NCBI GenBank assembly: GCA_019322375.1 | Contig: JAHWIP010000003.1 | Location: forward strand, 6,792 to 70,791 | Source: Candidatus Woesearchaeota archaeon | Lineage (GTDB): Archaea > Nanobdellota > Nanobdellia > Woesearchaeales > SM23-78 | Reading direction: 5' to 3' | Length of the DNA stretch: 64,000 nucleotides | In this document: positions 26 through 26,279 of the stretch, piece after piece | How the letters are laid out: each line of letters begins with the position of its first letter | How positions within the stretch are numbered: the stretch's first letter is position 1 | Made by a program: the position numbers and the translations under genes | The notes under the pieces: generated by a model | Databases searched by the model: none | What the model was told of the DNA's origin: nothing | The model's input: only the letters and a program-made list of their open reading frames with translations

Positions 26-1891
26 TTGGATCTTATAAAAATATATGCCATAGGGGAGGACCTCCCTTTTTCATTCTCAGTCCCTGCGATAGATAGAAAA
101 CTTAAATTTGTAGAGTTCCCTTACACCAGCAAAGGGGTATTCGGAGTGTCTCTCTCGTTTCTATTTATCTTTGGCTTTTTCACTCTGATCTCGCTCATAA
201 TAAAGTTATCATCTTTTTTTATTTATTCATTTTTTTTCATAGGACTTATCCTGGTCCTTATCTCTTACATGTATCCTGTTCACATATTCTACACCCAGAG
301 AATGATGAGTTATAGAGAAGAGATGCTTAAATCAATTATGAGAATAGCAACCTTTATCTCAATGAACACCAGCATGGAATATGCAATTATTAATACAAGG
401 CGGCATTTGTGGGGCACTCTGAAAACCCAGTTCACAGATATAGTGAACAAACTCCAAAGAAGAGACTACAACACACTGGGTGATGCTTTTGAACACTACA
501 CTCCCATATGGAACGAGGTTAACCCTGATTTTGTAAAATCCCTTAGATTGATAGAGACCGCAGCCATGTCAAAAGAAGAGGACAGGATGAAAATCCTGGA
601 TGAAGTTCAGGAAACATTAATCATAAGCTATCACACAATGGGCAAGCGGTTTGCAGAAGACCTGTCATCAAAAGCAAAATCATTAGTAACCATAGGAGTT
701 CTTTTTCCTGTAATCTCTTTAATGCTTCTTCCATTAGTATCAGTGTTTCTTCCAGAAGTGGTCAGCACTCCCTTGGTAACCTTCTTCTATACTATCCTGT
801 TTCCTGTGTTGCTCTTGGTCATGGCTCTTAATTTTTCAGCTTTGAGAATACAAGTAGATACTATTCGTATATCAGACTCTCCCTTATACAAGAAACCTTC
901 TGCATGGCTGCTTCTTATAGGAGCAATAATAATCCTTGTTTTTTCAGCACCCACAATAGCCCACCTGCTAACAATTGACATGGCAATACCTGAGAGTGTT
1001 GAGAATGAATACAAATTTGTCTCAATAATTATTTGCCTGCTTTTAGGACTTGGAGTTGCCTTGGCAATTTTTGTTCTAAGCCAGATATATGTAAGGAAAT
1101 ATCATAAGCTATGGAAAGACGTGGATATGACCGAGAGAGACCTGCCTCATCTGTTACAATCCTTTTCAACCTATCTGACCCTGAACCGGTCTGTTGAGAG
1201 CATAATATCTGATATTGTTGATGATTACAAGATTCATGGGTTTTCAAAACACCCTGTTGTAAAATTTTTCTCAAATATTATTCTCCAGTTAAAAGTAAGC
1301 AAAAAGTCAGTTGCAAATCTTGCCAAGACTCTTTTACCCAAGATTTGCCCTTCAAGAAAAGTGAGCGGAACCCTGTCCCAGATAATCTCTTTCACAGACA
1401 TTTCCCAGGAGAGCGCTGCAAAAGCTGCCAAGATGATAAGAAAACAAACCATATCCATTTATCAGCTGGATGATTACATACAAACCATGCTGAGTGAGAC
1501 CATTTCCTTAATCAACATCACAGTATCCCTGCTTGCACCCATATTATGTGCAGCTGCTGTGCTAATGTCAATGGCAATTGTGAAGTCCCTGGTATTTGTA
1601 GAGAAAATACTCTCAGCCCTGGCCTTTGGAGCCAAGATAGATCTGGCCCTGGCAAAAGTGGAATTAATCATTCCCCCAACCATAATCGAAGTTGTAGTGG
1701 CAATCTACCTCTTGGAAATGATACTGGTGCTTTCCTTATTCTCATCAAACATAAAGTATGGTCATGACATGTTTCAATTTGTTAAAACCCTGCTCTCAAA
1801 CCTGATGGGCTTTCTTATCTTTGTGGTAATCCTGGTCCTGGGTTACTACTTTCTTGAAACCCTGGTGTTTGGCGAAATCTTTGCTACGTAG
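26..1891 (+). CDS. Type IV pilus/archaellum-type assembly platform membrane protein (TadC/FlaJ/PilC family, two T2SS-F-like repeats); N-terminus may extend upstream of window
   Basis: 621 aa polytopic membrane protein with two repeated cytoplasmic helical modules each followed by TM segments (GDAFEHY..LRLIETAAMS..ILDEVQETL then TM; second copy SKHPVVKFF..LAKTL..AAKMIRKQ then TM), architecture typical of T2SS-F/FlaJ; followed by many pilin-like genes. Confidence 0.55.
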   Translation: MDLIKIYAIGEDLPFSFSVPAIDRKLKFVEFPYTSKGVFGVSLSFLFIFGFFTLISLIIKLSSFFIYSFFFIGLILVLISYMYPVHIFYTQRMMSYREEMLKSIMRIATFISMNTSMEYAIINTRRHLWGTLKTQFTDIVNKLQRRDYNTLGDAFEHYTPIWNEVNPDFVKSLRLIETAAMSKEEDRMKILDEVQETLIISYHTMGKRFAEDLSSKAKSLVTIGVLFPVISLMLLPLVSVFLPEVVSTPLVTFFYTILFPVLLLVMALNFSALRIQVDTIRISDSPLYKKPSAWLLLIGAIIILVFSAPTIAHLLTIDMAIPESVENEYKFVSIIICLLLGLGVALAIFVLSQIYVRKYHKLWKDVDMTERDLPHLLQSFSTYLTLNRSVESIISDIVDDYKIHGFSKHPVVKFFSNIILQLKVSKKSVANLAKTLLPKICPSRKVSGTLSQIISFTDISQESAAKAAKMIRKQTISIYQLDDYIQTMLSETISLINITVSLLAPILCAAAVLMSMAIVKSLVFVEKILSALAFGAKIDLALAKVELIIPPTIIEVVVAIYLLEMILVLSLFSSNIKYGHDMFQFVKTLLSNLMGFLIFVVILVLGYYFLETLVFGEIFAT

Positions 1892-1894
1892 CGA

Positions 1895-2100
1895 TTAATG
1901 TGCATTTCTTCTGAGTTAGGGGTATCTATGTTGGAGCAAGGGTGGGTGAGGCCGATTCGCGAGGGCATCCCTTAGCTTAACAATCAGAGCGGAGTCGGGG
2001 GACGCCCCAGCCGGGGGAACGGAGCCCTAGGAAAAATAACTAGGCCCGAGCTGGCCCCACCCTTGCGAAGCAACGGCTTGGAGAAATCAGGGCTAATTAG
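1895..2100 (+). ncRNA. GC-rich ORF-free island, candidate structured ncRNA (SRP 7S RNA considered but not confirmed)
   Basis: About 60 percent GC in a one-third GC genome, between convergent genes; perfect 11-bp long-range pairing GCAAGGGTGGG(1938-1948)/CCCACCCTTGC(2059-2069) enclosing several local hairpins (CGGGGGACGCCCC, CCTAGGAAAAATAACTAGG); contains GAAGCAACGG reminiscent of SRP helix-8 3' strand but no GGAA tetraloop in expected place. Confidence 0.35.
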
Positions 2101-2161
2101 CTAAAAATTTATTTTATCTATACAGAATAATAAACAAAATATTTTTCTTTGATAATTCCAT

Positions 2162-2782
2162 TCATATTGTTTTTACAAGGTAGTCTTGCATTATTGTTTC
2201 TCCAGTATTGCCAACTAAGAAATTTTTTGGTAATCCACATCCACCGCCTTTTGCAAACTCTCCAGAATTCGGGTCAAACTCAACCAGATAACAATAATTT
2301 CTTCCAATTACTGGCACCATGTAGTACCATGGCTCTGTTCCACCATTATTTTTTATACCGAATTTAAGGATTGGCTCCTTAATTTCTTCAACTTCTTTAT
2401 CTATATTATCCCTTCCTAGAAGAATCACATTTCCTTGCACAATATCTCCTGCTTTTATCTTTAAATCTTGAAGTCCTTCTTCAGTTAAACCAGTCTCAGT
2501 TTCTATAGGCAGTATATTCTGATTTATTGTTTCTTCAACTTCATTTTTAGAAAGAACAGTTCCTATCTCATACCTACCACCTTCTACACGATTTTTTCCA
2601 ACCACCAGGTAATACCTATCCTGTCCATTTACATCAATTTTAAATAACCAACCACTTAAATACGAATAAGGCCCTTGTGGTATCTGGGTACTTAAAAGAG
2701 AGGAACTTGAAAGAAGGTACAATCCAATGATAGCACAAATCACTATTTCAATTCCAATTATTATCTTATGTGAAGTCTTCAT
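2162..2782 (-). CDS. Hypothetical secreted/membrane-anchored protein
   Basis: 206 aa ORF with N-terminal hydrophobic anchor (IIIGIEIVICAIIGLYLL), no recognisable catalytic motif. Confidence 0.4.
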   Translation of the reverse strand: MKTSHKIIIGIEIVICAIIGLYLLSSSSLLSTQIPQGPYSYLSGWLFKIDVNGQDRYYLVVGKNRVEGGRYEIGTVLSKNEVEETINQNILPIETETGLTEEGLQDLKIKAGDIVQGNVILLGRDNIDKEVEEIKEPILKFGIKNNGGTEPWYYMVPVIGRNYCYLVEFDPNSGEFAKGGGCGLPKNFLVGNTGETIMQDYLVKTI

Positions 2783-2922
2783 ATCTATTCTAATTTTACT
2801 GTTATCTCTATAAAAAACTTTTGTTTAAATTAGAATTATCCTGTGAACCAGCTTTGACTGGATTTATTTCTCAAGCCTCCTAAGCACAAAAGTTATAAAG
2901 GATAAAGCCAGAAATCTAGTGT

Positions 2923-3018
2923 ATGAATCGTACTTTGATTGAGATTATTGGCCTGGTGATAGCTGTGATTGCTATTGGCTTTGCTATTTACAAGGTTATC
3001 CAGGTGCTGGGTGGTTGA
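2923..3018 (+). CDS. Small hydrophobic peptide (31 aa), possible Flp-like mini-pilin or membrane peptide
   Basis: ATG..TGA ORF MNRTLIEIIGLVIAVIAIGFAIYKVIQVLGG ending exactly where next gene starts (tgaATG), below ORF-track size cutoff. Confidence 0.25.
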   Translation: MNRTLIEIIGLVIAVIAIGFAIYKVIQVLGG

Positions 3019-3441
3019 ATGGAAACTGTTGAAATCATTGTGTTCATAGTATTTGCTTTTATGGTTGGCTTTTTAATACTGGGTGTTGTTACTGGCTGGG
3101 ATTTTGGAAAGTATAATGAGGGCTTGAAAAAAGTCTTTTCAGGTGGAGAAGGCGGGGATTTTAAGAAAACCAGTAAAGAAGAATTTGCAGCAGAGGTTTA
3201 TTCTTTTTTTCAGGAATGCAAGGATAAAGGAACCAATATATCCACTTCGTTTTATTTAAAAGAAGAAGGCTCTTTTTCAAAGCAGGAATTATTCCAGGTG
3301 TACAAGGGTTTTGGCTGGTGCAAGTCAATCCAGTCCTTGGAGAATGAGTGCGGCCAGAGAGAGGATGTGACTATGCAGGACCTCCAGCTGCCCAGAGTTG
3401 TGCGTCTGGAATGCAGAGACGAGCACTTAACCATATCTTAG
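3019..3441 (+). CDS. N-terminally anchored small secreted protein (pilin-like/minor pilin candidate)
   Basis: 140 aa; short N-terminus then hydrophobic helix (IIVFIVFAFMVGFLILGVV), several Cys in C-terminal part; first of tandem array downstream of TadC/FlaJ. Confidence 0.4.
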   Translation: METVEIIVFIVFAFMVGFLILGVVTGWDFGKYNEGLKKVFSGGEGGDFKKTSKEEFAAEVYSFFQECKDKGTNISTSFYLKEEGSFSKQELFQVYKGFGWCKSIQSLENECGQREDVTMQDLQLPRVVRLECRDEHLTIS

Positions 3442-3480
3442 TCCATATTGGAATGAAATGTAGAGAGGAATTAAGATAAA

Positions 3481-3891
3481 ATGCAGGTAGCAGAAATTAT
3501 GATTTATGTGATAGTAGCCATTCTTGTCGGCTCTTTAATACTCCTGGCTATGAGGATTGATTATTCAAAGCAGCATTCTGGTTATCAAGAAGCTTTTGCT
3601 AATGAAGAAAAGCCTGTTTTTAAAGTAGAGTCAAAGGATTTTCCTTTGGAAGTTGCTAAGAGATGGGAGGAGTGCGGCTTGGGCACCATGAACAAGTCTT
3701 CTTCTGTTTATGTTCATGATGATGCTCTTATTAATGAGAGTTTTGTGATTACAGAACTAAAAAGGCTTGATAAATGCGATATTATTGATTGTTATAATAC
3801 AGAAAACAGATTTATACTCACAAACTTTCCTATAACCACACCAAAAATTATAAATATCCGTTGTTTTAATAATACTTTAATAATAGGATAG
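3481..3891 (+). CDS. N-terminally anchored small secreted protein (pilin-like)
   Basis: 136 aa; MQVAEIMIYVIVAILVGSLILLAM N-terminal helix; Cys pairs in C-terminus. Confidence 0.4.
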   Translation: MQVAEIMIYVIVAILVGSLILLAMRIDYSKQHSGYQEAFANEEKPVFKVESKDFPLEVAKRWEECGLGTMNKSSSVYVHDDALINESFVITELKRLDKCDIIDCYNTENRFILTNFPITTPKIINIRCFNNTLIIG

Positions 3892-3901
3892 GAACTTTCA
3901 A

Positions 3902-4327
3902 ATGGAACTACCAATAAGAATAATGATAATATTGTTTGTTGCAATTGTTGTAGGTGTGATGATAATAGCTTTTTCAAGAAATATCCTGGAAAGGTCCAAG
4001 GAAAAATTGGACAATCCTCCTGGCTTGGATTTATCAGATGCTGAGGAGCAAAAGATTGTTGAATTAAACAATCTGGATAATTCGCAGTTAATAGAGATGG
4101 TAAGGGCTTGTTATGAGATGCATCATGCAAAGACTTTTAACAGAGAGCTCTGCTTTGTGGTGATAGCCAGCACTTCTTCATGGACCCAGGGTGGTGTGCA
4201 AGGCTATTTTCAGCAGCCAGACAACCTGATTAGTGCCAGTATTGAGTTTGTAGGAAACCCGGATTATGCATTAAAAATATACTATGAAGCCTCTCCTGAT
4301 ATTGAGCAAATCGAGATTTCAAGATAA
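3902..4327 (+). CDS. N-terminally anchored small secreted protein (pilin-like)
   Basis: 141 aa; MELPIRIMIILFVAIVVGVMIIAF N-terminal helix. Confidence 0.4.
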   Translation: MELPIRIMIILFVAIVVGVMIIAFSRNILERSKEKLDNPPGLDLSDAEEQKIVELNNLDNSQLIEMVRACYEMHHAKTFNRELCFVVIASTSSWTQGGVQGYFQQPDNLISASIEFVGNPDYALKIYYEASPDIEQIEISR

Positions 4328-4440
4328 ATAATAGATAAAAATATATAAAAAACAGATAAAAATAACAAACTATATTAATAAGGATTATAATAAACTAATA
4401 ATATATAAGAATAATACATAATAAAAGAAGAGGTGATAAA

Positions 4441-5037
4441 ATGACATTAAAGGTTTCTAGAGGAAAAAAAGGCACAGACAAGCCAATTGAAATCTTTATT
4501 GCTTTATTCGTAATACTGGCAGTGGCAATGGTGCTGTTAAAGATGTTCTCCAGCCAGATAGAGTCTAAGAAGAGAGAAATGGAGGAACAACAGCTACAAG
4601 AGGCTGCAAGAGCAGCCATGGAAGACCTTAACACGTTCTGTGATTCTCAGTGCACGCATGCACACCGTTCATTAAAGGACAAAGTAACTTTTTGCACAAG
4701 CTACTATCGAGAGCACGTTGATATAAATAAAAACAATGTTGTTGATTACACAATGGCATTGGATAATATATACGGCTATTGCGAGGATAGGATTTACTGC
4801 GCTGTTTACAGGCCCTGCAGCAATCTTAACATGGAAAATTGCATTGAAATTCTATGTGATTATTTGGGTGTCAATGCTAATTTAAGAGTCTTTGACATAC
4901 AATACGGCCTTATACTGCCAGGAGATTGTTATGACGCAATAAGAACCTCTGCTGACCAGGATGACATTTTTAAAAAGGCAAATCACTGGTATACAAGCTT
5001 GCTGTCTTCATTTGGCGATCCACCAACCTGCCCTTAA
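4441..5037 (+). CDS. Pilin-like Cys-rich secreted protein
   Basis: 198 aa; basic N-term RGKKGTDKPIEIFIALFVILAVAMVLL (class III signal-peptide-like), about 10 Cys in extracellular part; SD-like GAGGTGA 8 nt upstream. Confidence 0.45.
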   Translation: MTLKVSRGKKGTDKPIEIFIALFVILAVAMVLLKMFSSQIESKKREMEEQQLQEAARAAMEDLNTFCDSQCTHAHRSLKDKVTFCTSYYREHVDINKNNVVDYTMALDNIYGYCEDRIYCAVYRPCSNLNMENCIEILCDYLGVNANLRVFDIQYGLILPGDCYDAIRTSADQDDIFKKANHWYTSLLSSFGDPPTCP

Positions 5038-5086
5038 TCATTATAATAAAGCAAGAAAAAAGCTATCTGTAGGAGCATGACTCAAG

Positions 5087-5353
5087 ATGGACCAGGCAGT
5101 TTGGGCAGTTTTTGGTATTATAGCAGTTCTTATTGGAATCGGGATTTTATTAAATGTGCTTGGAGAGAACAAGGATGAATCAAAGTATATTCTTTTTAAA
5201 CAATCCTTAGACTCACTAAAGAACCAGTGCGATTTTGTGTGCAACTCGCCTGCAGAAACTTATTTATCAATAATGGTTGAGCTGCCTTCTGGCATGCGCC
5301 TCTACACAGACCAGAACAGGATTTGCGCTCATCTGAATATTTATAAAAAATAA
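5087..5353 (+). CDS. Small pilin-like protein
   Basis: 88 aa; N-terminal hydrophobic helix AVFGIIAVLIGIGILL, 4 Cys. Confidence 0.35.
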   Translation: MDQAVWAVFGIIAVLIGIGILLNVLGENKDESKYILFKQSLDSLKNQCDFVCNSPAETYLSIMVELPSGMRLYTDQNRICAHLNIYKK

Positions 5354-5471
5354 TCTGATGAAACCAAGTGCGTGTTATGCAGTTGCCAGGTTGTAGTAAA
5401 AAACAATGAACTCAATCTCCAAACCCCGGCTGCTCTGAAAGCTTTTTCTTCTCATAAATATTCTTGCTTTT

Positions 5472-6119
5472 TTGAAAGAAAAGAAAATGAGATTGAAATC
5501 GAATGTAAGGGCTGATATCCTTGCTAATACTGTTTTATGGTTTGGAATCCTTATAGCAGCCATGATTTGCATGGCATGGCTAGTCAAGAATCTTCGCTCG
5601 CCTTATCTTCCAACAAAAGAACTGGATAATGAGCTTGACCAGTTGCAGCTGGATTTAAACAAGGCCTGCACAATGGATTATTTTTGGAAAAGATACTATC
5701 CCAAGGTTAACAAGGGCAAGCTGATATTCAATGACTTCCAGGTGTGCATGAATGCAGGAGAATGCAAAGTGCTTTTTTTTAAGCCAACCATGCCCAATGC
5801 ATCAGGGCACTTACTTGAAGGAAAAGATATCCTTCTGCCCAATGCAACAGAATGCGAGAATATTGAGCTTTGCCAAGCACTTTTTTTTACATCAGACAAT
5901 GAACCCCCTCTTATTGATTATATTGATGATGCTCAGGGCAGCAGGATAAGGATTAATAATGCTAATGTTTGTGAGCTTAAACCAAAACCAATAACAAGAT
6001 GCAGGCTGCTTACATGTTCATTAAATATAACAGAACATTTTTCCCTGGATAAAATTGTTTACCTTAACATAACAAGAGATAAAAGTGGTGTTTTCAGTGT
6101 TCAGCCAAAAGAATCCTAA
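5472..6119 (+). CDS. Pilin-like Cys-rich secreted protein
   Basis: 215 aa; basic N-term then TM (VLWFGILIAAMICMAWL), about 10 Cys. Confidence 0.4.
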   Translation: MKEKKMRLKSNVRADILANTVLWFGILIAAMICMAWLVKNLRSPYLPTKELDNELDQLQLDLNKACTMDYFWKRYYPKVNKGKLIFNDFQVCMNAGECKVLFFKPTMPNASGHLLEGKDILLPNATECENIELCQALFFTSDNEPPLIDYIDDAQGSRIRINNANVCELKPKPITRCRLLTCSLNITEHFSLDKIVYLNITRDKSGVFSVQPKES

Positions 6120-6147
6120 GCAGAATAAGTCTGGAAAGAAAAAGCCT

Positions 6148-6597
6148 ATGCAAAAAAAATCCAGGCAAAACAAGGGCATATATTCCTTAGCCACTTCCTT
6201 CTTATTTATTATCATATTAATATTTGTGGTCATAGCTGTGGTTTTCTTTTTTAACCTGTTAAAAGCCAAGAGAATGCAGGCAAGTGATGAGCTAGTAAAA
6301 TATGTGCATATAAGGGATGCTAAGAACAAGATTCTTTCATCTGAGTGCTATACGCATATTATAGAAGAAGCAGATGCTGAGCAGGAGTGCTTTCTGCCTG
6401 AAGGCTTTATCAAGGGATATGTTATTGAGATGCTGGTTTATCCTAACTGCACAACCCAGCACAAGACATGGGAGCATATGCTTGTTGAAGATGAAGCAGG
6501 GGCTGGTGAAGAAGGAGAAATTTATCCTTACTTTGTGCCTGTTCAAGCCAATACCACAGGCAATATTTGCCCTGGAAAACTAAAGGTGATATATTAA
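6148..6597 (+). CDS. Pilin-like secreted protein
   Basis: Internal ATG chosen (MQKKSRQNKGIYSLATSFLFIIILIFVVIAVVFFF) giving basic N-term + G + hydrophobic helix; ORF-track start 6085 overlaps previous gene. Confidence 0.4.
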   Translation: MQKKSRQNKGIYSLATSFLFIIILIFVVIAVVFFFNLLKAKRMQASDELVKYVHIRDAKNKILSSECYTHIIEEADAEQECFLPEGFIKGYVIEMLVYPNCTTQHKTWEHMLVEDEAGAGEEGEIYPYFVPVQANTTGNICPGKLKVIY

Positions 6598-6628
6598 AAG
6601 ACAGTATATTAAAAGGTGGTTCACTAAA

Positions 6629-8074
6629 ATGGGAGTTGTTGACAATATAATGGGAGCGGTTCTTGTTGTCCTTATACTATTGATTGCTGGCATTATTTAT
6701 CTGTCCCTTTTTGCACGCGAAGCATCACAGGATATTAGTGTGACCAGCACTGCTTTTTTTAATGGTATAAACACAAATAATTTTAACACTGTTCTTAAAA
6801 TAACAGAGGAGAATTCCCAAAAATCTTTGGGTGTTTTAATTTCAGAAATAACTTATTACAGGTCTTTGCCTGCGCAGTCAGATGACGGACCTAATGTAAC
6901 AGGGACTTTAAAGGATTTGCTGGATACTGCTTTTTCCACTAATGATTATTATTTCAAAGCAGAACCAGAACTAACACAGATTAGTCTGAACTTTGTTTTT
7001 GACGGCACACCCAGCTCTATGCTTAAGAGAAATGTATTAGCAAACAATCTGGTGAATATAATAGACTTTACCCAGGAAAAAATGGATAATAAAAGCAGAA
7101 GCGAGGGGCGTATTCCAAAAAACTCGGTTACAGCAGATGTATACATCATGGGTCCAAGAGGTGACAAATGCAATATCTTTGATGATTTAAACAGGGTTGA
7201 TATAAACTGCCATGGCATTCGCAGCAATGAGATATATTTAAGCGAGGACATGATGCAAGGACTTTTTGTGCCTGGTTTTCTGCTTGACTATGAAATGTAT
7301 CCTCCTTTTGGTTTTGAATGGATTGAGGAGGATGCTAACAGAGAAGACTCATACGTGGCTAATGAAGAAGATTATTATCAAGCTGACTGGGGTTTTGGAA
7401 CAGCTTATGTATCGCATAAACTAAGCAGTGCAGCTTATAGGAATCGTTTAAACCTTATTTTTCCTGTGAGTGATGAACTATCCACCAGCTCTATACCTGA
7501 TGATTGTTTTTACAAGACATTTATTCCTGACTGGGTTGTGTGCGCTCTTTGCGAGGATGAATGCCCTGTTGAAAGAGCTAACATATCCATTAGCAAGGCA
7601 ATAGAAGTGGCAACAGATTATAATCATGTGCTCATACCTGTTTATGGTTATGGAGGTGATTATGAAATAACCCATCCCCAGATTTATGATTGGAATGGCC
7701 TTGCAGGCACTTCAAGATATGTTGATGGTTTTGGAAGCCCTGGAAATACCTGGTGTGATGCTTCTGGGTGTGGTGGTTGTTCAGAACAACAAGGAGGCAT
7801 ATGCTTTCATCCTGATTGTGCAAGCATTCTGCAGGAGCACATGAACAGAATGGCTGATGAAACCAATGGAATATTCATTGACCTGACTGCTAGCCAGCAG
7901 GAATTTGCAGACACCATCTTTTCAACAATAAGCAATATCATGGACCAGTTCACAATAGAGATTGGGGTGAAAAATGAGAGCAGGGAAAGGGATGTGGTGG
8001 AAGTGAAACAGCCCCTGCCAGATGGAAATTCTCTTCCCTTGAAGTTATGGGTGTATAAGAATCAAAACATTTAA
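6629..8074 (+). CDS. Large pilin-like secreted protein (possible pilus tip/adhesin)
   Basis: 481 aa; N-terminal helix MGAVLVVLILLIAGIIYLSLF; Cys-rich C-terminal region. Confidence 0.4.
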   Translation: MGVVDNIMGAVLVVLILLIAGIIYLSLFAREASQDISVTSTAFFNGINTNNFNTVLKITEENSQKSLGVLISEITYYRSLPAQSDDGPNVTGTLKDLLDTAFSTNDYYFKAEPELTQISLNFVFDGTPSSMLKRNVLANNLVNIIDFTQEKMDNKSRSEGRIPKNSVTADVYIMGPRGDKCNIFDDLNRVDINCHGIRSNEIYLSEDMMQGLFVPGFLLDYEMYPPFGFEWIEEDANREDSYVANEEDYYQADWGFGTAYVSHKLSSAAYRNRLNLIFPVSDELSTSSIPDDCFYKTFIPDWVVCALCEDECPVERANISISKAIEVATDYNHVLIPVYGYGGDYEITHPQIYDWNGLAGTSRYVDGFGSPGNTWCDASGCGGCSEQQGGICFHPDCASILQEHMNRMADETNGIFIDLTASQQEFADTIFSTISNIMDQFTIEIGVKNESRERDVVEVKQPLPDGNSLPLKLWVYKNQNI

Positions 8075-8127
8075 ATCAGAATAAATTAAATATATAGAAA
8101 GAAATAATATATAACGAGGTTGGTACT

Positions 8128-9744
8128 ATGAAACTTGATAAAAAAGCATTTGGTAAAAAAGCAAATGTACTTGCTGCTGTTTTAGTAATAATAGTTGTTG
8201 TTGCAGGAACTGTTGTGTTCTCTAATATTGTTGTTAAGAAGTACCCGACAGAAGATTCTCAGGAAAACTTTAACACCCAGGCAGATGCTACTCTTAGGGA
8301 AGCTATTTTCTCAGGCATTGCTGACTGGCTTGAGAACGGGTTTTCGCACAGAACTCCTTTCTGGTATAACAATGAGCCCCGTCCTGTTTCTTTTTCAGAA
8401 GCCCTGGATGCTCTGTACTACTATGTGAATAACAGTGTGAGCAAGAATGCAGATTTATTAACTGATGATGAATCTGATTTCTATGTGGCTCCAGGCGTGC
8501 GCGTGGTGTTTGATATACATAACTCTTTTGACCCTGAATCCCTGGACGGCTCTTTAGAGGATTTTGAGGTTGGCATACAAAAAGAGGATTTAGAGCAATT
8601 ACAAGACCTTTCATCTGAGTTTTCTTATCCTGTAAAAGCAGGCTTGTTCTTCACCACCTTTAACACTTGGATGGAGAGCAATGCTGATAATGTTACCCAG
8701 AACATGTTTGACAAGCTCCTGGAAAAACCATGCCAGTTAGTGACAGGGGTGTGCCTGTGTGATGAGCCTGGAGCAGAGTTTGACCCAGATGCTATAGATA
8801 ATATAAAGCTCAAGTACAGTGATGTTCAGGATGTGCTTGATGAAAGAGTGCAGGCCTTGGAAGATTTGTTTCCTGCTGACGAAAACATTGAGTGCGGATA
8901 CATAGTTGAGAAGCTGAACATAAACAATCATATGTATTCTGACTGGAGCAGAGAAGAAATCGGGCCTGAGCGTACTATAGAAGTTCCAGTGAGAGTAGAC
9001 CCTGATCCGTTTGGCTATGTTTTTAACTTTTTAGAATGGAATGAAACCACAACTTATCCTGAGGAAGAAGACTTGACTTATTTTAACCTAAGACCTCCTC
9101 TGCCTGTTGACACAGGAATACAAGGAGTTTATCCAGGCGATGCAGAGGTTATGAAGAGCTGTGAGGAAGCAATTGCAGACATCCCAGAAGACCCTGACAA
9201 GCCTGTAAAAGTTGGCATGCTTGCCATGAACAAAAAAGTTGCTTTGCTGGCAAAAATCTACTGTGCTCATCCAGAAATAAAAAAATATGGAGAAACAGGT
9301 TTTGAGCCTTTAACAGCAGAATTCAGAATAAGGGTATCCCTTGCTTTGGACTGTCCTTTGCCTAGCTATGATGTGGACAAGCATGTTGGTGAGCCAATAT
9401 ATCAGGAACCATTTATTAATTGCGAAATACCTCCGCCTCCTCTTCCTGAACCTGCTGAGATACCAGTTCCTTGCATGAGTCCTGAGGACTGCCCTGACCC
9501 ATGCGAGGAATGTAATTTAGCTACTGGCAGATGCGTGGATATTCCTAATTGCTGCTGCGGAGTAATTATGCCGTCTGGAATGAAGTGCTGTAGTTGTAAT
9601 AATATCTGCAGTGCTTGCTGTGGCAGGAATTGCCTGCCTGCTGGACGAGTGTGCTGCAAAGGCCAGGTGTGCGCATCAGGACAGATTTGCTGTGGCGGAG
9701 AGTTCTGCTCTTCAAGTGCTGCATGCAGTGCAGCAGTTAGCTAA
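8128..9744 (+). CDS. Large pilin-like secreted protein with extremely Cys-rich C-terminus
   Basis: 538 aa; MKLDKKAFGKKANVLAAVLVIIVVVAGTVVF class III-like N-term; C-terminal 90 aa contain more than 25 Cys (CCCGV..CCSCNNICSACCGRNC..). Confidence 0.45.
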   Translation: MKLDKKAFGKKANVLAAVLVIIVVVAGTVVFSNIVVKKYPTEDSQENFNTQADATLREAIFSGIADWLENGFSHRTPFWYNNEPRPVSFSEALDALYYYVNNSVSKNADLLTDDESDFYVAPGVRVVFDIHNSFDPESLDGSLEDFEVGIQKEDLEQLQDLSSEFSYPVKAGLFFTTFNTWMESNADNVTQNMFDKLLEKPCQLVTGVCLCDEPGAEFDPDAIDNIKLKYSDVQDVLDERVQALEDLFPADENIECGYIVEKLNINNHMYSDWSREEIGPERTIEVPVRVDPDPFGYVFNFLEWNETTTYPEEEDLTYFNLRPPLPVDTGIQGVYPGDAEVMKSCEEAIADIPEDPDKPVKVGMLAMNKKVALLAKIYCAHPEIKKYGETGFEPLTAEFRIRVSLALDCPLPSYDVDKHVGEPIYQEPFINCEIPPPPLPEPAEIPVPCMSPEDCPDPCEECNLATGRCVDIPNCCCGVIMPSGMKCCSCNNICSACCGRNCLPAGRVCCKGQVCASGQICCGGEFCSSSAACSAAVS

Positions 9745-9845
9745 GGATACCCCAAACTTTAAAAAGAGAAACCAAATCTTAATTTATATAAATATAAAAG
9801 GTGATTTATGTGGTAGTAGAATTTAGTGAATTCAAAGGCAATAAA

Positions 9846-9965
9846 ATGATTGTTTTAAAGAGAAGCGATGAAGACCCTTTTCCATTCAGGTTTGGAAAGA
9901 ACAAAGCCAAACTCTTAGTAGAAAATTACGAAGCTGTTAAGAAGTTTGCTGAGGAAGAGGACTGA
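9846..9965 (+). CDS. Small hypothetical protein whose 3' end is duplicated downstream (integration target?)
   Basis: 39-aa ATG ORF (51 aa from GTG 9810) MIVLKRSDEDPFPFRFGKNKAKLLVENYEAVKKFAEEED; last 27 nt repeated at 11047-11073. Confidence 0.3.
   Translation: MIVLKRSDEDPFPFRFGKNKAKLLVENYEAVKKFAEEED
9939..9965 (+). repeat. 27-bp direct repeat copy 1 (AAGAAGTTTGCTGAGGAAGAGGACTGA)
   Basis: Exact 27-nt identity with 11047-11073; read directly from sequence. Confidence 0.9.
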
Positions 9966-10041
9966 TTTTTTAACTAATAACTATTTTATTTTTAGTTTTC
10001 TTTCATAAGCTTTATATAATTGTAATACTTTCCTATTCATT

Positions 10042-10485
10042 ATGGAGAAAATAGAAGAAATAATAATAAATACTTTACGAAATCCGAAATCAGCCAGGCA
10101 AATTAAATATTTAGCTCTTGATTTACTATCTAATGCATTGAATATAAATGTTTTGGCTGATTTAGCTAAAAAGCACAACATTGAAAATAGAATGGGTTAC
10201 TTAGCGGAGATTAGTGCTATTGCTGCTAAAAAAGAAGGGCTATCCTCTTACTCAAAATTGAATAAATTGAAAAATCAATTATCTAATGGAAAGCGTTCTT
10301 GGGCTTATTTAGAACCTACTTTGCCTGAATATGCTAAACGAATAATCGCTGATAACCCTCAAACTAAATATAATAGAAAATGGAAAGTATATTCTACTCT
10401 TAAACCCAAAGAAATTTGTGATTGGGTTAAACTTTATGGTTTAAAGAAAAATGCCCCCTCTTTATCAAGACAAGGAGCTTACTAA
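10042..10485 (+). CDS. Putative HTH/winged-helix antitoxin-like protein
   Basis: 147 aa, basic, overlaps downstream NTase gene by 35 nt in different frame; position and size fit transcriptional-regulator partner of NTase toxin. Confidence 0.35.
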   Translation: MEKIEEIIINTLRNPKSARQIKYLALDLLSNALNINVLADLAKKHNIENRMGYLAEISAIAAKKEGLSSYSKLNKLKNQLSNGKRSWAYLEPTLPEYAKRIIADNPQTKYNRKWKVYSTLKPKEICDWVKLYGLKKNAPSLSRQGAY

Positions 10486-11002
10486 GGAAAATGTTCTTTC
10501 TATTTTAAGAGAAATAGATTCTGATTTAGAAGGATTACAGAGAAAATTAAGATTATATTGTTTAGGAGGCACACAACTAGCTCTTATAGACCTTAGAACT
10601 GTTTCTAAAGATATCGATTTTATAGTGTCTCATAATGATTGGATGATGTTAAGCGGTCCAGTTGCAAGGATAGAGAATAAAAAGGAAATAAGGTTTGATG
10701 TATTTCCAGGAGGCGAACTTCCTAACTACACATACCAATCTTATACTTTCCATGCGAAGAAACTTCCTTTCTATTTTAATAACTTAGAGATTTATTCCAT
10801 AGATGATGCAGATTTTGTATTGACAAAAGCACTTTCTGGCAGAGGAATAGATTACGAAGATATTGATACCCTCCTTTCCGGGGGAATTGAAATTCCTAAA
10901 GAAGTTCTTGTTGAACGATTTAAGGGTGTAAAACCCATGAAAGGAAAAGAAAGGGAGATTAAAGATAAATTTGAAAAATTCCTTAATGAATTTTATAAAT
11001 AA
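10451..11002 (+). CDS. Nucleotidyltransferase-fold protein (AbiEii/MNT-like toxin candidate)
   Basis: 183 aa; RLYCLGGTQLALIDLRTVSKDIDFIV (GG...S.DIDF motif of pol-beta-type NTases). Confidence 0.45.
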   Translation: MPPLYQDKELTKENVLSILREIDSDLEGLQRKLRLYCLGGTQLALIDLRTVSKDIDFIVSHNDWMMLSGPVARIENKKEIRFDVFPGGELPNYTYQSYTFHAKKLPFYFNNLEIYSIDDADFVLTKALSGRGIDYEDIDTLLSGGIEIPKEVLVERFKGVKPMKGKEREIKDKFEKFLNEFYK

Positions 11003-11046
11003 TAATTGTAAACTCTACATTATATTCATCCTTTTGAAAGTAAATC

Positions 11047-11073
11047 AAGAAGTTTGCTGAGGAAGAGGACTGA
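11047..11073 (+). repeat. 27-bp direct repeat copy 2
   Basis: Exact copy of 9939-9965. Confidence 0.9.
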
Positions 11074-11134
11074 GCCAATTTTTTAGTTTACCAGAACATT
11101 TATATATTTTCATTGTTTTCTTTACTATTCTAGA

Positions 11135-11875
11135 ATGAAAAGAAGAGATTTTATTAAGACAACAGGTTTGGGATTAGCAGGCCTTACTTTGAGTTTGAAT
11201 GAGGTAAATTGTTTTTCTCCTAAAGAACAAGAATTCTCTGTCCGTTTTGGAACAAATATACGTGGATATTTATGTATAGATGATTTTATAGCAGAAAAGA
11301 CCGGAACTGTCAAGGAATTAAAAGATTTTTACAAAAACACTTTTATCAAGTATCATCCCATTATAGAGGTGTGGGATAAGGATTTAGATGAGAATATTAT
11401 TGCAATGCTTGAAAATGACAAAGATATCTTACCAGTTCCATACAAACCACGTGATTTTCATGATTCTGATATAGAGAGACTTCATTATAAAATAAGTCCT
11501 GTTGTGAAGAAACTACGTTATTTTAAGCGTTTTAACATAGACAATATAACTCATGAGTTTGTATTTGAATTTATGTTTTCAGCAGGCAAGATTCTTGGCT
11601 TGCACGGATTTAGTATTGGGAAAGAAATAAAAGAAGACAGGGGTTTCAATGCCTTTTTCTTTTTAGGATATCATGATAAGGATGATTTTGGAGCAGGGGC
11701 TGGTACAACTTTGAGTGCTAGAACTTTTGGGATTAATTATAAACCAATTAAGGATTTAAATGATAACAAGATATTTAATTCACTTGCTAATCATGTAGAT
11801 ATGAGTGATAAAAGAAAGCGTTTGATTAAAGCGCTTGAAGGCCAGAAAGAAGTTCAGAAATATATGCATGGTTAG
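11135..11875 (+). CDS. Secreted hypothetical protein with twin-arginine (Tat) signal
   Basis: MKRRDFIKTTGLGLAGLTLSL = RRxFxK Tat motif followed by hydrophobic stretch; 246 aa. Confidence 0.45.
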   Translation: MKRRDFIKTTGLGLAGLTLSLNEVNCFSPKEQEFSVRFGTNIRGYLCIDDFIAEKTGTVKELKDFYKNTFIKYHPIIEVWDKDLDENIIAMLENDKDILPVPYKPRDFHDSDIERLHYKISPVVKKLRYFKRFNIDNITHEFVFEFMFSAGKILGLHGFSIGKEIKEDRGFNAFFFLGYHDKDDFGAGAGTTLSARTFGINYKPIKDLNDNKIFNSLANHVDMSDKRKRLIKALEGQKEVQKYMHG

Positions 11876-11885
11876 AATAATATCT

Positions 11886-12875
11886 TCATATCTTCTTCAC
11901 TATCATGCCTTTAAAATCTTTGCTTAGCATTTCTTTGGCTTTTTTAGTCATGTCTGCTGTTGTTATGAATATTACCGGCAGTTTCCTGGCCTGTCCTTGC
12001 ACATAAGCACTGCTTAGGTCGCCGTCATTTATTTTCTTTTTCTTTTTTGCTTTGCAATAGTATTCCTGGCTTCCTATACGAGAAGGAACTGCCAGAGTTA
12101 GTTCTATGTCTGATTTTTTCCTTTTAATCTTGTACTCAAGCACCTGTATATCATTCTTTTTGCAATAACCCCAAACTTTTTTGAAGAAAGAATCTTTTTC
12201 TCTTTCCAAATCTTCAGATGGTATGCCTAGTTCTTGCTGGACTTCTTCTCTTGATTCTTTCTTTTCGTCTTTTTCCTCTTCCTTTGCCACAGCAACCCTC
12301 GCGAGCTTTGGGCGAGCGAGCAACAAATCTTTTTCTTTTTCAGTTTTTTCTTCAGTTTTTATTTCTTCTTGCTTTATTTCGGGTTTCTTTTCCTCAACTT
12401 TCTTAACAGGCACCTTTACCACTTTTCTCGCAGGCCTTATCTCACTTAGTATCATCTGCTCTGCTTCCTTTGTCGGCGTCATATACCATTTCCAATAGAT
12501 TTCTCTCTGCCCTTTAACTGTTACTTCCAATGGCTTTGCAAAATCCCTTATGCTTCTCAAACTAACTCTTACTAATGGGCTTAAATCCCTGTCTTTCAAA
12601 ATCTTTTTCTGCCTTAACAACTCTGCTGTTTTCCTGTCTTTTTCATTCAAATACTTCATTAAGTTCTGCAGCCTTACCTCTGTTCCTGGCGTGTAATAAG
12701 CAGGTGTGCTCCCAACTTTTGTATTGGTTACATTGACTTTGCCTGCTTCTTTTAACTCTGCGAGTATAGCTCCAAGAAGAATTGTATCTCCTGCCTTGAT
12801 AATCTTTTTCAGCTCATTAGGAATAAGAGGCCCTCTCATCTGCACAACTTTAAGAATGTCTTCTTTGTTAACCAT
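11886..12875 (-). CDS. Winged-helix N-terminal domain + Mrr-like restriction-endonuclease catalytic domain protein with K/E-rich linker
   Basis: 329 aa; C-terminus DIELTLAVPS..QEYYCKAK..KLPVIFITTADMTKKAKEM resembles Mrr_cat (PD-(D/E)xK; vqCK and ifiTTs.ft motifs); linker contains GC-rich palindromic element. Confidence 0.4.
   Translation of the reverse strand: MVNKEDILKVVQMRGPLIPNELKKIIKAGDTILLGAILAELKEAGKVNVTNTKVGSTPAYYTPGTEVRLQNLMKYLNEKDRKTAELLRQKKILKDRDLSPLVRVSLRSIRDFAKPLEVTVKGQREIYWKWYMTPTKEAEQMILSEIRPARKVVKVPVKKVEEKKPEIKQEEIKTEEKTEKEKDLLLARPKLARVAVAKEEEKDEKKESREEVQQELGIPSEDLEREKDSFFKKVWGYCKKNDIQVLEYKIKRKKSDIELTLAVPSRIGSQEYYCKAKKKKKINDGDLSSAYVQGQARKLPVIFITTADMTKKAKEMLSKDFKGMIVKKI
12297..12323 (-). 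repeat. GC-rich palindromic element copy B (TTGCTCGCTCGCCCAAAGCTCGCGAGG), in-frame inside CDS
   Basis: Near-identical to 47995-48023 and ends match 61421-61447. Confidence 0.8.
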
Positions 12876-25877: not shown

Positions 25878-26279
25878 CTATATATATTCAAGTAATTTAT
25901 TAATTTGGTGTTTATAAACATGGTTGTTCGGTAGCTTTCCAAACATTTCTTCTAAAGCATCTAACGAAACCCATTTTAATGCACTAATTTCATCTTTTTT
26001 TCTACTTTCTTTTCCTCTGCTTACTTTAGCATGATAATCAAATCTTTCAAGAATATCTCCTTTGGAGCCTGAATGAAAATAATGATCAAGTAATTTAACA
26101 ATTTCAATTAAATATCCTGTTTCTTCCTTTATACCTCTTTTAATTCCTTCTTCTGGTGTTTCCGCAGGTTTAATTGTTTCTGATGGAATTTTCCATTTTT
26201 TAGAATCTATTTCTTTAACTAATAGATATTCTCCTTTATTATTTTCAACAAAGGCACTGCTTATTATGACTTTATTCAT
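25878..26279 (-). CDS. NUDIX hydrolase
   Basis: GIKRGIKEETGYLIE = Nudix box (REx2EExGU). Confidence 0.65.
   Translation of the reverse strand: MNKVIISSAFVENNKGEYLLVKEIDSKKWKIPSETIKPAETPEEGIKRGIKEETGYLIEIVKLLDHYFHSGSKGDILERFDYHAKVSRGKESRKKDEISALKWVSLDALEEMFGKLPNNHVYKHQINKLLEYI

What the first reader, a model, noticed from the sequence alone, without database searches (positions are those of the whole stretch)
9810..11073. A toxin-antitoxin-like cassette sits between 27-bp direct repeats that duplicate the end of a small gene
The sequence AAGAAGTTTGCTGAGGAAGAGGACTGA occurs at 9939-9965 and again exactly at 11047-11073. At 9939-9965 it encodes the C-terminus ..KKFAEEED of a small ORF. The 1.1 kb between the copies carries an HTH-like gene that overlaps a pol-beta-type nucleotidyltransferase gene (AbiEi/AbiEii- or MNT-like arrangement). 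This is the footprint expected for site-specific insertion of a small mobile module into the 3' end of a host gene, with att-site duplication regenerating the gene end. No integrase gene is present.
Basis: seen in the sequence. Interest (0 to 1): 0.65.

Follow-up and report, generated by a model that had tools for sequence, protein, structure and literature searches.

The report
Toxin-antitoxin-like cassette inserted between 27-bp repeats
In an uncultured Woesearchaeota genome, a two-gene AbiE-like toxin-antitoxin-type module sits between two exact copies of the last 27 bases of a small conserved gene; this looks like the scar of a recombination event that added the module without breaking the gene, and a related genome carries the mirror-image product.

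Summary
AAGAAGTTTGCTGAGGAAGAGGACTGA occurs exactly twice (9939-9965 and 11047-11073; 0 expected by chance). Copy 1 is the 3' end of a conserved 51-aa gene.

- The closest backbone relatives have the small gene abutting a convergent 329-aa 'anchor' gene, with no cassette.
- In three other genomes the cassette sits at this same locus flush against the anchor, with no right-hand repeat.
- Contigs L019 and L009, from one metagenome, show the reciprocal layout: small gene, window-type 3' end, homologue of window 11074-11098, orphan native 3' end, then the cassette.
- So recombination has recurred at the same point, about 27 nt before the stop codon.

No integrase, terminal inverted repeats, hairpin or tRNA was found.

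The extra DNA relative to the closest relatives is 1.9 kb. It includes ORF246, which has no homologue, and all three genes in it have low GC3.

Verdict: this is a recombination scar at a variable hot spot. The cassette is most likely the inserted piece. Whether the event was site-specific or driven by short homology is unresolved. Interest is moderate.

The parts
9810..9965 (+). Small conserved gene (51 aa), the target of the insertion. It probably has a PC4-like ssDNA-binding fold.
   Evidence: 54 homologues in Nanoarchaeota/Woesearchaeota. AlphaFold model pLDDT 90. Best Foldseek match is the PC4 C-terminal domain, prob 0.92 but E 0.6. A GGTGA motif at 9800-9804 precedes the GTG start.
9939..9965 (+). 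Repeat copy 1 (R1): the last 8 codons plus the stop codon of the small gene.
9966..10041 (+). Left flank of the cassette: a T-run followed by TTTATATA (10011-10018), 24 nt before the ATG. I read these as a terminator and a promoter; that is inference.
   Evidence: 85% identical to the stretch between the orphan 3' end (B) and the partner-gene start in L019. Resembles the stretch downstream of the small gene in L011 (44 of 2000 shuffles score as well).
10042..10485 (+). Partner gene (147 aa), AbiEi-like and mostly helical; presumed antitoxin/regulator.
10451..11002 (+). DUF6036 pol-beta-type nucleotidyltransferase (183 aa); presumed toxin/effector.
   Evidence: PF19502, E 1.7e-5, 25.2 bits against a 23.6-bit cut-off. 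L38-G39-G40, 13 residues, then D54-I55-D56, read from the sequence. G40, D54 and D56 are invariant in alignment A3.
11003..11046 (+). 44-bp 'tail' between the nucleotidyltransferase stop and repeat copy 2; origin unknown.
   Evidence: No significant similarity to the small-gene body, to the L019 spacer or to the anchor 3' end. Absent in L009 and L008, where the nucleotidyltransferase stop lies 2 nt from the anchor stop.
11047..11073 (+). Repeat copy 2 (R2): an orphan, non-coding copy of the small-gene 3' end.
11074..11134 (+). Segment D. Its first ~25 nt are the flank that directly follows an intact small gene in L019. It also contains TTTATATA (11099-11106), 29 nt before the ORF246 ATG.
   Evidence: Window D against L019 D': score 23, matched by 2 of 500 shuffles. 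Weak resemblance to the L020 spacer (201 of 2000 shuffles).
11135..11875 (+). ORF246: an orphan gene with a Tat-like N-terminus (MKRRDFIKTTGLGLAG...). It belongs to the 1.9-kb stretch that the closest relatives lack.
   Evidence: It matches only itself among 5.8 billion proteins. TIGR01409 scores 15.5 bits against a 16.7-bit cut-off. GC3 0.25, z -1.5.
11886..12875 (-). Convergent 329-aa 'anchor' gene: the conserved right-hand border of the variable spot.
   Evidence: 65-79% identical in relatives (tblastn). It is always followed by the tRNA-splicing endonuclease and a metallo-beta-lactamase-fold gene.

Best explanation
The two 27-mers are the junctions of a recombination event. That event placed a ~1.1-kb AbiE-like two-gene module (AbiEi-like partner plus DUF6036 nucleotidyltransferase, each with a flank) into the 3' end of a conserved small gene. 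The last 27 nt of the gene lie on both sides of the module, so the gene stays intact.

The module comes from a related Woesearchaeota lineage. There it sits directly behind the small gene and flush against the convergent anchor gene.

The exchange point is about 27 nt before the stop codon. A circular or looped DNA carrying the gene's 3' end plus the cassette recombined with the chromosomal 3' end (Campbell-type). This produced: small gene-R1-cassette-tail-R2-native flank D-ORF246.

It is not decided whether the strand exchange used a recombinase encoded elsewhere in the genome or the host's RadA/Hjc homologous recombination acting on the short identity.

Shown: the repeat, the gene families and folds, the synteny, the variable spot, and the reciprocal arrangement in L019.

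Inferred: the direction of the event (that the cassette is the insert), the circular intermediate, and toxin-antitoxin activity.
For: 1. The repeat is exact, unique and sharp-edged.

2. The backbone order metallo-beta-lactamase-fold gene / EndA / anchor / [variable spot] / RNaseH-like / FEN1 is conserved in relatives. The closest ones by backbone genes are L003 and L020 (tblastn identity: anchor 75-79%, EndA 91-97%). In these, and in 15 contigs of the P0009 species, the small gene abuts the anchor with no cassette.

3. L019 has an intact small gene followed directly by the homologue of window 11074-11098. The R-to-D junction is therefore a native gene end, which the cassette interrupts in the window.

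4. L019 carries lineage signatures:
- Its small-gene body is L011-like (87% nt, 79% third-position identity, against 78% and 57% to the window).
- Its orphan 3' end B differs from L011's gene end by 2 of 24 nt and is followed by an L011-like flank.
- Its in-gene 3' end A is of the window/L003 'EEED' type and is followed by a window-like D.
- The switch in type falls at the left edge of the window's 27-mer.
Recombination at the same point has therefore happened at least twice, with the partners swapped.

5. The cassette flank 9966-10041 is 85% identical to L019's and resembles L011's native flank, so it is foreign to the L003-like window lineage.

6. The partner gene, the nucleotidyltransferase gene and ORF246 have GC3 of 0.21-0.25 against a window mean of 0.35. 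The small gene and the anchor are typical.

7. The gene pair recurs in unrelated contexts: a 59% GC contig, a site next to a PIN gene, and haloarchaeal plasmids where a MarR-family gene overlaps the DUF6036 gene by 4 bp.

8. RadA and Hjc are encoded in the window.
Against: 1. In L009 (nucleotidyltransferase 86% identical), L008 (69%) and the P0058 contig (68%) the cassette is at this same locus. In L009 and L008 its stop codon is 2 nt from the anchor's stop, with no right-hand repeat. In the P0058 contig the gene calls leave 1 nt between them, but no DNA was available. There the cassette looks resident, and its divergence tracks the backbone.

2. ORF246 has no homologue anywhere, so the D-ORF246 block could be the newer arrival.

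3. No relative shows the exact empty site (small gene-R-D-ORF246).

4. There is no integrase in the cassette or among the 29 neighbouring or integrase-sized ORFs scanned. There are no terminal inverted repeats, no hairpin and no tRNA.

5. If the module had brought an L011/L019-type 3' end, the two copies should differ. Their identity requires a donor with the same 27-mer or later gene conversion.

6. The segment between the two copies in L019 is only 43 nt, too short to have been a circle unless its cargo was later deleted.

7. Only two genomes show the duplication.
Confidence: 0.5

Rival explanations
1. The cassette is the resident piece, and the insert is the block tail-R2-D-ORF246 (11003-11885). 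DNA from a cassette-less allele of the same locus entered an allele of the form small gene-R-cassette|anchor. That DNA began 27 nt inside the small gene and ran through ORF246 into the anchor. It entered by homology-facilitated illegitimate recombination: a homologous crossover in the anchor gene and a non-homologous join after the nucleotidyltransferase gene.
For: The cassette is flush against the anchor in L009 and L008, and by gene calls in the P0058 contig, so that adjacency looks ancestral for cassette-bearing genomes. ORF246 is unique to this genome and has low GC3. The junction between a small-gene 3' end and the cassette is also old, since it is shared with L019. The 44-bp tail has no recognisable origin, as filler DNA at an illegitimate joint would.
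Against: It needs a non-homologous breakpoint exactly at the left edge of the 27-mer. L019 has a breakpoint at the same place in the small gene, and two independent illegitimate joins at one spot are unlikely. The window's small-gene body is L003-like, and that lineage lacks the cassette. D follows an intact small gene in L019, so D is a native-type flank.
Confidence: 0.25
2. There is no mobile DNA involved. The second 27-mer is a short templated insertion, or a local duplication produced by replication template switching or break repair, that copied 27 nt from 1.1 kb upstream. ORF246 and the cassette arrived separately.
For: The copies are exactly identical and only 1.1 kb apart. No recombinase, inverted repeats or structured site was found. 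The surrounding DNA is AT-rich and low in complexity.
Against: It does not explain why the sequence right after copy 2 is the flank that natively follows the small gene in L019. It also does not explain why L019 has the same kind of duplication with swapped partners and lineage-specific sequence types.
Confidence: 0.1
3. Assembly artefact: the MAG contig is a chimera of two strain variants, joined or collapsed at the shared 27-mer.
For: The source is a metagenome-assembled genome. The Logan assembly of SRR14699983 breaks between 9990 and 10007, close to copy 1.
Against: Logan contig L002 runs 25 nt past copy 1 into the cassette flank. L001 runs from inside that flank through the cassette, copy 2, D, ORF246 and the anchor. 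Both junctions are therefore seen without a branch at the 27-mer, which is shorter than the assembler's k of 31 as I recall it. An independent metagenome contig, L019, joins a small-gene 3' end to the same cassette flank.
Confidence: 0.03

Closest known systems
AbiE (AbiEi/AbiEii) type IV toxin-antitoxin / abortive-infection systems (Dy et al. 2014, PMC3985639)
   Same: A two-gene operon in which a putative regulator gene precedes and overlaps a small pol-beta-superfamily nucleotidyltransferase gene. The hGG-x13-DhD catalytic motif is present. Stretches resembling motif III (K126...R131) and motif IV (D134-x-x-D137) can be read in the sequence. The partner's best structural match is AbiEi.
Integrative elements that insert into the 3' end of a gene and regenerate it through att-site duplication (tyrosine-recombinase islands at tRNA genes or protein-gene 3' ends)
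   Same: Exact direct repeats flank the insert. The repeat is the 3' end of the target gene including its stop codon. The gene stays intact. Relatives lack the insert.
   Different: There is no integrase in the element or nearby. The element is only 1.1 kb. The target is a protein-coding gene, not a tRNA gene. The cargo sits at the same locus without a right-hand repeat in other genomes.
Orphan 3'-end cassette arrays behind rhs / cdiA toxin genes, where downstream modules start with a short copy of the main gene's 3' region and are swapped by homologous recombination (from my own knowledge)
   Same: A short piece of the upstream gene's 3' end precedes each downstream module. In two genomes the two modules are stacked in opposite order behind the same gene.
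   Different: Here the repeated piece encodes the same peptide each time, so the protein does not change. The modules are independent genes with their own promoters, not alternative C-termini.
Integron gene cassettes
   Same: Small promoter-proximal modules stacked at one site next to a fixed gene.
   Different: No attC-like hairpin (z-scores 0.5-1.4). No integron integrase. The repeat is coding sequence.

Membership tests
DUF6036 nucleotidyltransferase (Pfam PF19502) | Score above Pfam's gathering cut-off | tested here: met
   25.2 bits against a 23.6-bit cut-off, E 1.7e-5, residues 17-140. Distant relatives on haloarchaeal plasmids are annotated as DUF6036 family.
DNA pol-beta nucleotidyltransferase superfamily | hG[GS]-x9-13-DhD catalytic motif | tested here: met
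   L38-G39-G40, 13 residues, D54-I55-D56, read from the sequence. G40, S52, K53, D54, I55 and D56 are invariant in 6 homologues. The motif definition is from PMC3985639.
AbiE toxin AbiEii (DUF1814, PF08843) | Membership of DUF1814 | tested here: not met
   A Pfam scan at E<=1 returns only DUF6036. PADLOC's models give no hit for it.
AbiE toxin AbiEii (DUF1814, PF08843) | Motif II arginine, motif III (K flanked by hydrophobic residues / K..R) and motif IV (+DxxD) | tested here: inconclusive
   R49 is present in the window protein but not in all homologues. T125-K126-A127...G130-R131 and D134-Y135-x-D137 are invariant and resemble motifs III and IV. Their equivalence was not established by alignment to AbiEii.
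AbiE antitoxin AbiEi (COG5340: wHTH plus C-terminal domain) | Sequence membership in an AbiEi family | tested here: not met
   No AbiEi family in Pfam at E<=1. The only match is HTH_46 at E 0.11. None of the 41 family members hits an AbiEi model.
AbiE antitoxin AbiEi (COG5340: wHTH plus C-terminal domain) | AbiEi fold | tested here: inconclusive
AbiE / toxin-antitoxin system in general | Bicistronic operon with the regulator/antitoxin gene upstream and overlapping the toxin gene | tested here: met
   35-nt overlap, 10451-10485. The pair is conserved in L009, L017, L018, L025 and the P0058 contig. MarR-family plus DUF6036 genes overlap by 4 bp on plasmids.
AbiE / toxin-antitoxin system in general | Toxicity of the nucleotidyltransferase and its neutralisation by the partner | not testable with these tools
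   Needs expression experiments.
MNT-HEPN toxin-antitoxin | HEPN partner with an Rx4-6H motif | tested here: not met
   No HEPN family hit. The partner has a single His (H46) with no Arg 4-6 residues before it, read from the sequence.
Integrase-borne integrative element | Direct repeats flanking the element that duplicate the target's 3' end | tested here: met
Integrase-borne integrative element | Integrase or recombinase gene in the element | tested here: not met
   The element holds only the two genes. No recombinase family among 29 other ORFs of the window scanned with Pfam. Not every ORF of the window was scanned, and none outside it.
Integrase-borne integrative element | Empty site in related genomes | tested here: inconclusive
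   Cassette-less relatives exist but also lack D-ORF246. The R-to-D junction behind an intact small gene is seen only in L019, which carries the cassette 43 nt further on.
Integrase-borne integrative element | Excised circular form or strain polymorphism | not testable with these tools
   Needs read-level data. The Logan contigs show no branch at the repeat.
Transposon / IS / MITE | Terminal inverted repeats and a short target-site duplication | tested here: not met
   No inverted repeat pairs the two ends of the insert. A 27-bp duplication is longer than usual target-site duplications (my own knowledge).
Integron cassette | attC hairpin at the cassette border | tested here: not met
   Both repeat regions, on both strands, fold no better than shuffles (z 0.5-1.4).

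The most novel reading that the evidence does not exclude
The last ~27 nt of this PC4-like small gene act as a dedicated attachment site in a group of Woesearchaeota. Self-contained downstream modules, each consisting of a gene 3' end, terminator, promoter and cargo, are exchanged between lineages at this site. They are stacked by a recombinase encoded elsewhere or by an unusually efficient short-homology pathway. This would amount to an integrase-less, 3'-end-regenerating module-exchange site in DPANN archaea. The AbiE-like cassette and the D/ORF246 block would be two such modules, found in opposite order in two genomes.
Probability: 0.15. Interest if true: 0.6.

Novelty: new variant of a known kind. 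Interest (0 to 1): 0.4.

Why it matters
Little is known about how DPANN archaea, with their tiny genomes and few recognisable mobile-element genes, gain and lose accessory genes. This locus gives a concrete and testable case. A defence/toxin-antitoxin-type module has been added at a fixed point in a conserved gene without disrupting it. A second genome shows the reciprocal product, and no recombinase is in sight.

The locus also links an uncharacterised family pair to the AbiE type of toxin-antitoxin system. The pair is DUF6036 plus a partner with no Pfam family, represented by only 51 clusters among 1.84 billion proteins. This extends AbiE-like systems to Woesearchaeota.

If the exchange proves to be site-specific, it would point to a new kind of small integrative module. 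If it is short-homology recombination, it is an ordinary but clear example of allele stacking at a variable hot spot.

Tried and rejected
1. Larger duplication. The 44 bp before copy 2 was compared with the small-gene body, with the L019 spacer, and with the 3' end of the anchor gene in four genomes. All were at chance level. An apparent shared 'x' segment to the left of the orphan copies in the window and in L019 was therefore dropped.

2. Repeat around the different insert in L011 (131-aa ORF). None found.

3. Extra partial 3' ends in the other loci fetched up to that point. None found, except in the window (and its own Logan contigs) and L019.

4. Virus or plasmid origin. The nucleotidyltransferase has no relative and the 27-mer has no match in IMG/VR. 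The partner has no match in the plasmid collection. The nucleotidyltransferase has only 26%-identical DUF6036 relatives on haloarchaeal plasmids.

5. Terminal inverted repeats, hairpins, Rfam families, tRNA genes. None.

6. Integrase search. 29 other ORFs were scanned with Pfam and none is a recombinase family.

7. PADLOC, NCBIfam and PHROGs gave nothing useful for the three small proteins.

8. Literature. 'DUF6036' appears in no paper of the library.

9. The N-terminal extension of the 174-aa orthologue P0063 was read for a hidden repeat remnant. None was evident.

10. Window D against the L020 spacer is only suggestive (201 of 2000 shuffles).

11. The afdb50 fold library was not available.

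12. DNA of the 17-kb JGI contig carrying P0058 could not be fetched.
Full report
**Observation**

The 27-mer AAGAAGTTTGCTGAGGAAGAGGACTGA occurs at 9939-9965 and 11047-11073. These are the only two matches when up to three mismatches are allowed, and no match appeared in 100 shuffles. It is the only exact long repeat in the window that is not low-complexity.

Copy 1 is the end (KKFAEEED*) of a 51-aa ORF. The ORF most likely starts at GTG 9810, after a GGTGA motif. Copy 2 is preceded by in-frame stop codons and is non-coding.

The 44 bp before copy 2 resemble neither the small-gene body nor the 3' end of the convergent downstream gene. The repeat is therefore sharp-edged and is not part of a larger duplication.

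Independent Logan contigs from SRR14699983 cover both junctions.

The window comes from an NCBI Candidatus Woesearchaeota MAG. The locus tags are KY348_00280 and KY348_00285, and the contig is 71,427 bp.

**The genes**

*Small gene.* It belongs to a tightly conserved family in Nanoarchaeota and Woesearchaeota, with 54 homologues and a conserved C-terminus. Its model (pLDDT 90) is closest to the PC4 C-terminal domain. That match is not statistically significant.

*Gene 10451-11002.* It is a DUF6036 nucleotidyltransferase, scoring above the gathering cut-off. It has an hGG-x13-DhD motif whose key residues are invariant among its six homologues.

*Overlapping upstream gene 10042-10485.*
- It has no Pfam or NCBIfam match that reaches a curated cut-off, and no PADLOC or PDB-sequence match.
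- Its family has only 51 clusters among 1.84 billion proteins.
- Its AlphaFold model is confident (pLDDT 92.8).

*The pair elsewhere.*
- It occurs in a 59% GC contig (L017) and in another low-GC contig (L018).
- It occurs next to a PIN gene in L025, where the nucleotidyltransferase is frameshifted.
- On haloarchaeal plasmids, DUF6036 genes are preceded by a MarR-family gene with a 4-bp overlap.

Measured against the defining features of AbiE in PMC3985639, this is an AbiE-like module in layout and fold. By sequence it is not a member of DUF1814/COG5340. An MNT-HEPN reading fails.

**Comparative anatomy of the locus**

Relatives share the backbone metallo-beta-lactamase-fold gene / EndA / 329-aa 'anchor' / variable spot / RNaseH-like gene / FEN1. 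The variable spot contains:

| Content of the spot | Genomes |
|---|---|
| No relative of the small gene or cassette | L012 (ORFs read); L014 and L015 by tblastn only |
| Small gene only, 12-36 bp from the anchor's stop | L003-L007/L010, L013 with 15 contigs of the P0009 species, L020-L022 |
| Small gene plus an unrelated 131-aa ORF, no repeat | L011 |
| Cassette, nucleotidyltransferase stop 2 nt from the anchor's stop | L009 (nucleotidyltransferase 86% identical), L008 (69%) |
| Cassette, 1 nt from the anchor by gene calls (no DNA available) | P0058 contig (68%) |
| Small gene + cassette + second 27-mer + ORF246 | Only the window |

ORF246 has no homologue among 5.8 billion proteins.

The ten ORFs upstream of the small gene have no Pfam match. 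FEN1 and the RNaseH-like gene are absent from the window.

The partner gene, the nucleotidyltransferase gene and ORF246 form a low-GC3 islet of 0.21-0.25, against a window mean of 0.35.

**The key relative**

L019 comes from the same metagenome as L009. It reads as follows:

1. FEN1 (minus strand).
2. An intact small gene ending AAAAAATTCGCTGAGGAAGAAGATTGA (called A here).
3. 43 nt whose first ~25 nt are homologous to window 11074-11098 (2 of 500 shuffles score as well).
4. A second, orphan 3' end, AAGAAATTTGCTGAGGAGGAATGA (called B).
5. A flank 85% identical to window 9966-10041.
6. The start of the partner gene.

Both genomes therefore hold two copies of the gene's 3' end, but the segments behind them are swapped:
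- Window: gene body | R + cassette | R + D + ORF246.
- L019/L009: gene body | A + D' | B + cassette.

L019 also carries lineage signatures:
- Its gene body is closest to L011 (87% nt, 79% third-position identity).
- B differs from L011's gene end at 2 of 24 positions and is followed by an L011-like flank.
- A is of the window/L003 'EEED' type and is followed by the window-type flank.
- The switch in type lies at the position of the left edge of the window's 27-mer.

In the window the gene body is L003-like, whereas the cassette flank is L011/L019-like.

Synonymous-site identity of the cassette between the window and L009 is 0.70-0.75. This is higher than for the small gene between the window and L019 (0.53, only 51 codons).

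**Interpretation**

Recombination at one point, about 27 nt before the stop of the small gene, has occurred at least twice. Each time it joined a 'small-gene end + D' allele to a 'small-gene end + cassette' allele and kept both.

In the window, the most likely insert is the cassette. Three lines of evidence point that way:
- The closest backbone relatives lack it.
- D is a native-type flank.
- The cassette's flank belongs to another lineage.

The mechanism is open. I found no integrase, inverted repeats, hairpin or tRNA. RadA and Hjc are encoded in the window. A Campbell-type event on the short identity is therefore as plausible as a recombinase encoded elsewhere.

The main rival is that the cassette is resident, as in L009, L008 and the P0058 contig, and that tail-R-D-ORF246 was inserted. 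This is favoured by the uniqueness of ORF246. It requires two independent illegitimate joins at the same spot.

A local templated duplication does not explain the L019 pattern. An assembly artefact does not fit the contig evidence.

**Verdict**

The cassette is a new, unclassified variant of AbiE-like modules. The repeat is a recombination scar at a variable hot spot in Woesearchaeota genomes. The reciprocal product in a second genome is the most interesting aspect.

Interest is moderate (0.4). Read-level tests for empty-site and circle junctions would decide between the models.

Noticed in passing
window 26-9744: Ten consecutive ORFs (136-621 aa) upstream of the small gene have no Pfam match. 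The last one (8128-9744, 538 aa) ends in a very cysteine-rich stretch. Relatives have RNaseH-like and FEN1 genes at this position, and neither is in the window. Synteny therefore breaks exactly at the small gene.
   Followed up: partly
window 11135-11875: ORF246 matches only itself among 5.8 billion proteins. It nevertheless has a clear Tat-like N-terminus (MKRRDFIKTTGLGLAGLTLSL; TIGR01409 scores 15.5 bits against a 16.7-bit cut-off) and its own TTTATATA box.
   Followed up: partly
window 9810-9965: The 51-aa protein is very conserved across DPANN archaea (P25, F26, F28, G29, K32, A33 are invariant). It models as three strands plus two helices. The PC4/Sub1 ssDNA-binding domain is the best fold match, though not significant. 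This may be an unannotated archaeal PC4-like protein.
   Followed up: partly
window 11886-12875 (minus strand): The 329-aa 'anchor' protein is conserved and syntenic with the tRNA-splicing endonuclease in all relatives. It has no family assignment. The only hint is a weak Mrr_cat (restriction endonuclease fold) match at its C-terminus (E 0.083).
   Followed up: no
L025 4517-5470: A distant copy of the partner + nucleotidyltransferase pair lies next to a PIN-domain gene. Its nucleotidyltransferase is split over two reading frames, so it is a decaying copy.
   Followed up: partly
L011 6969-7364 (minus strand of the locus): In this relative the same spot, between the small gene and the anchor, holds an unrelated 131-aa ORF with no flanking repeat. 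This is another sign that the spot is a hot spot for gene gain.
   Followed up: partly
window 25878-26279 and 27569-28780 (minus strand): Two further genes have markedly low GC3 (0.14 and 0.22; z -3.2 and -2.0). They may be other recently acquired genes. The second one (27569-28780) has no Pfam match.
   Followed up: no
window 9990-10007: The Logan assembly of SRR14699983 breaks within this extremely AT-rich stretch between contigs L002 and L001. This is probably a coverage drop, but strain heterogeneity was not excluded.
   Followed up: no
L003 2533-3426: A LAGLIDADG homing-endonuclease-like gene lies about 7 kb from the small gene in the SM23-78-type relatives. There is no counterpart in the window.
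   Followed up: no
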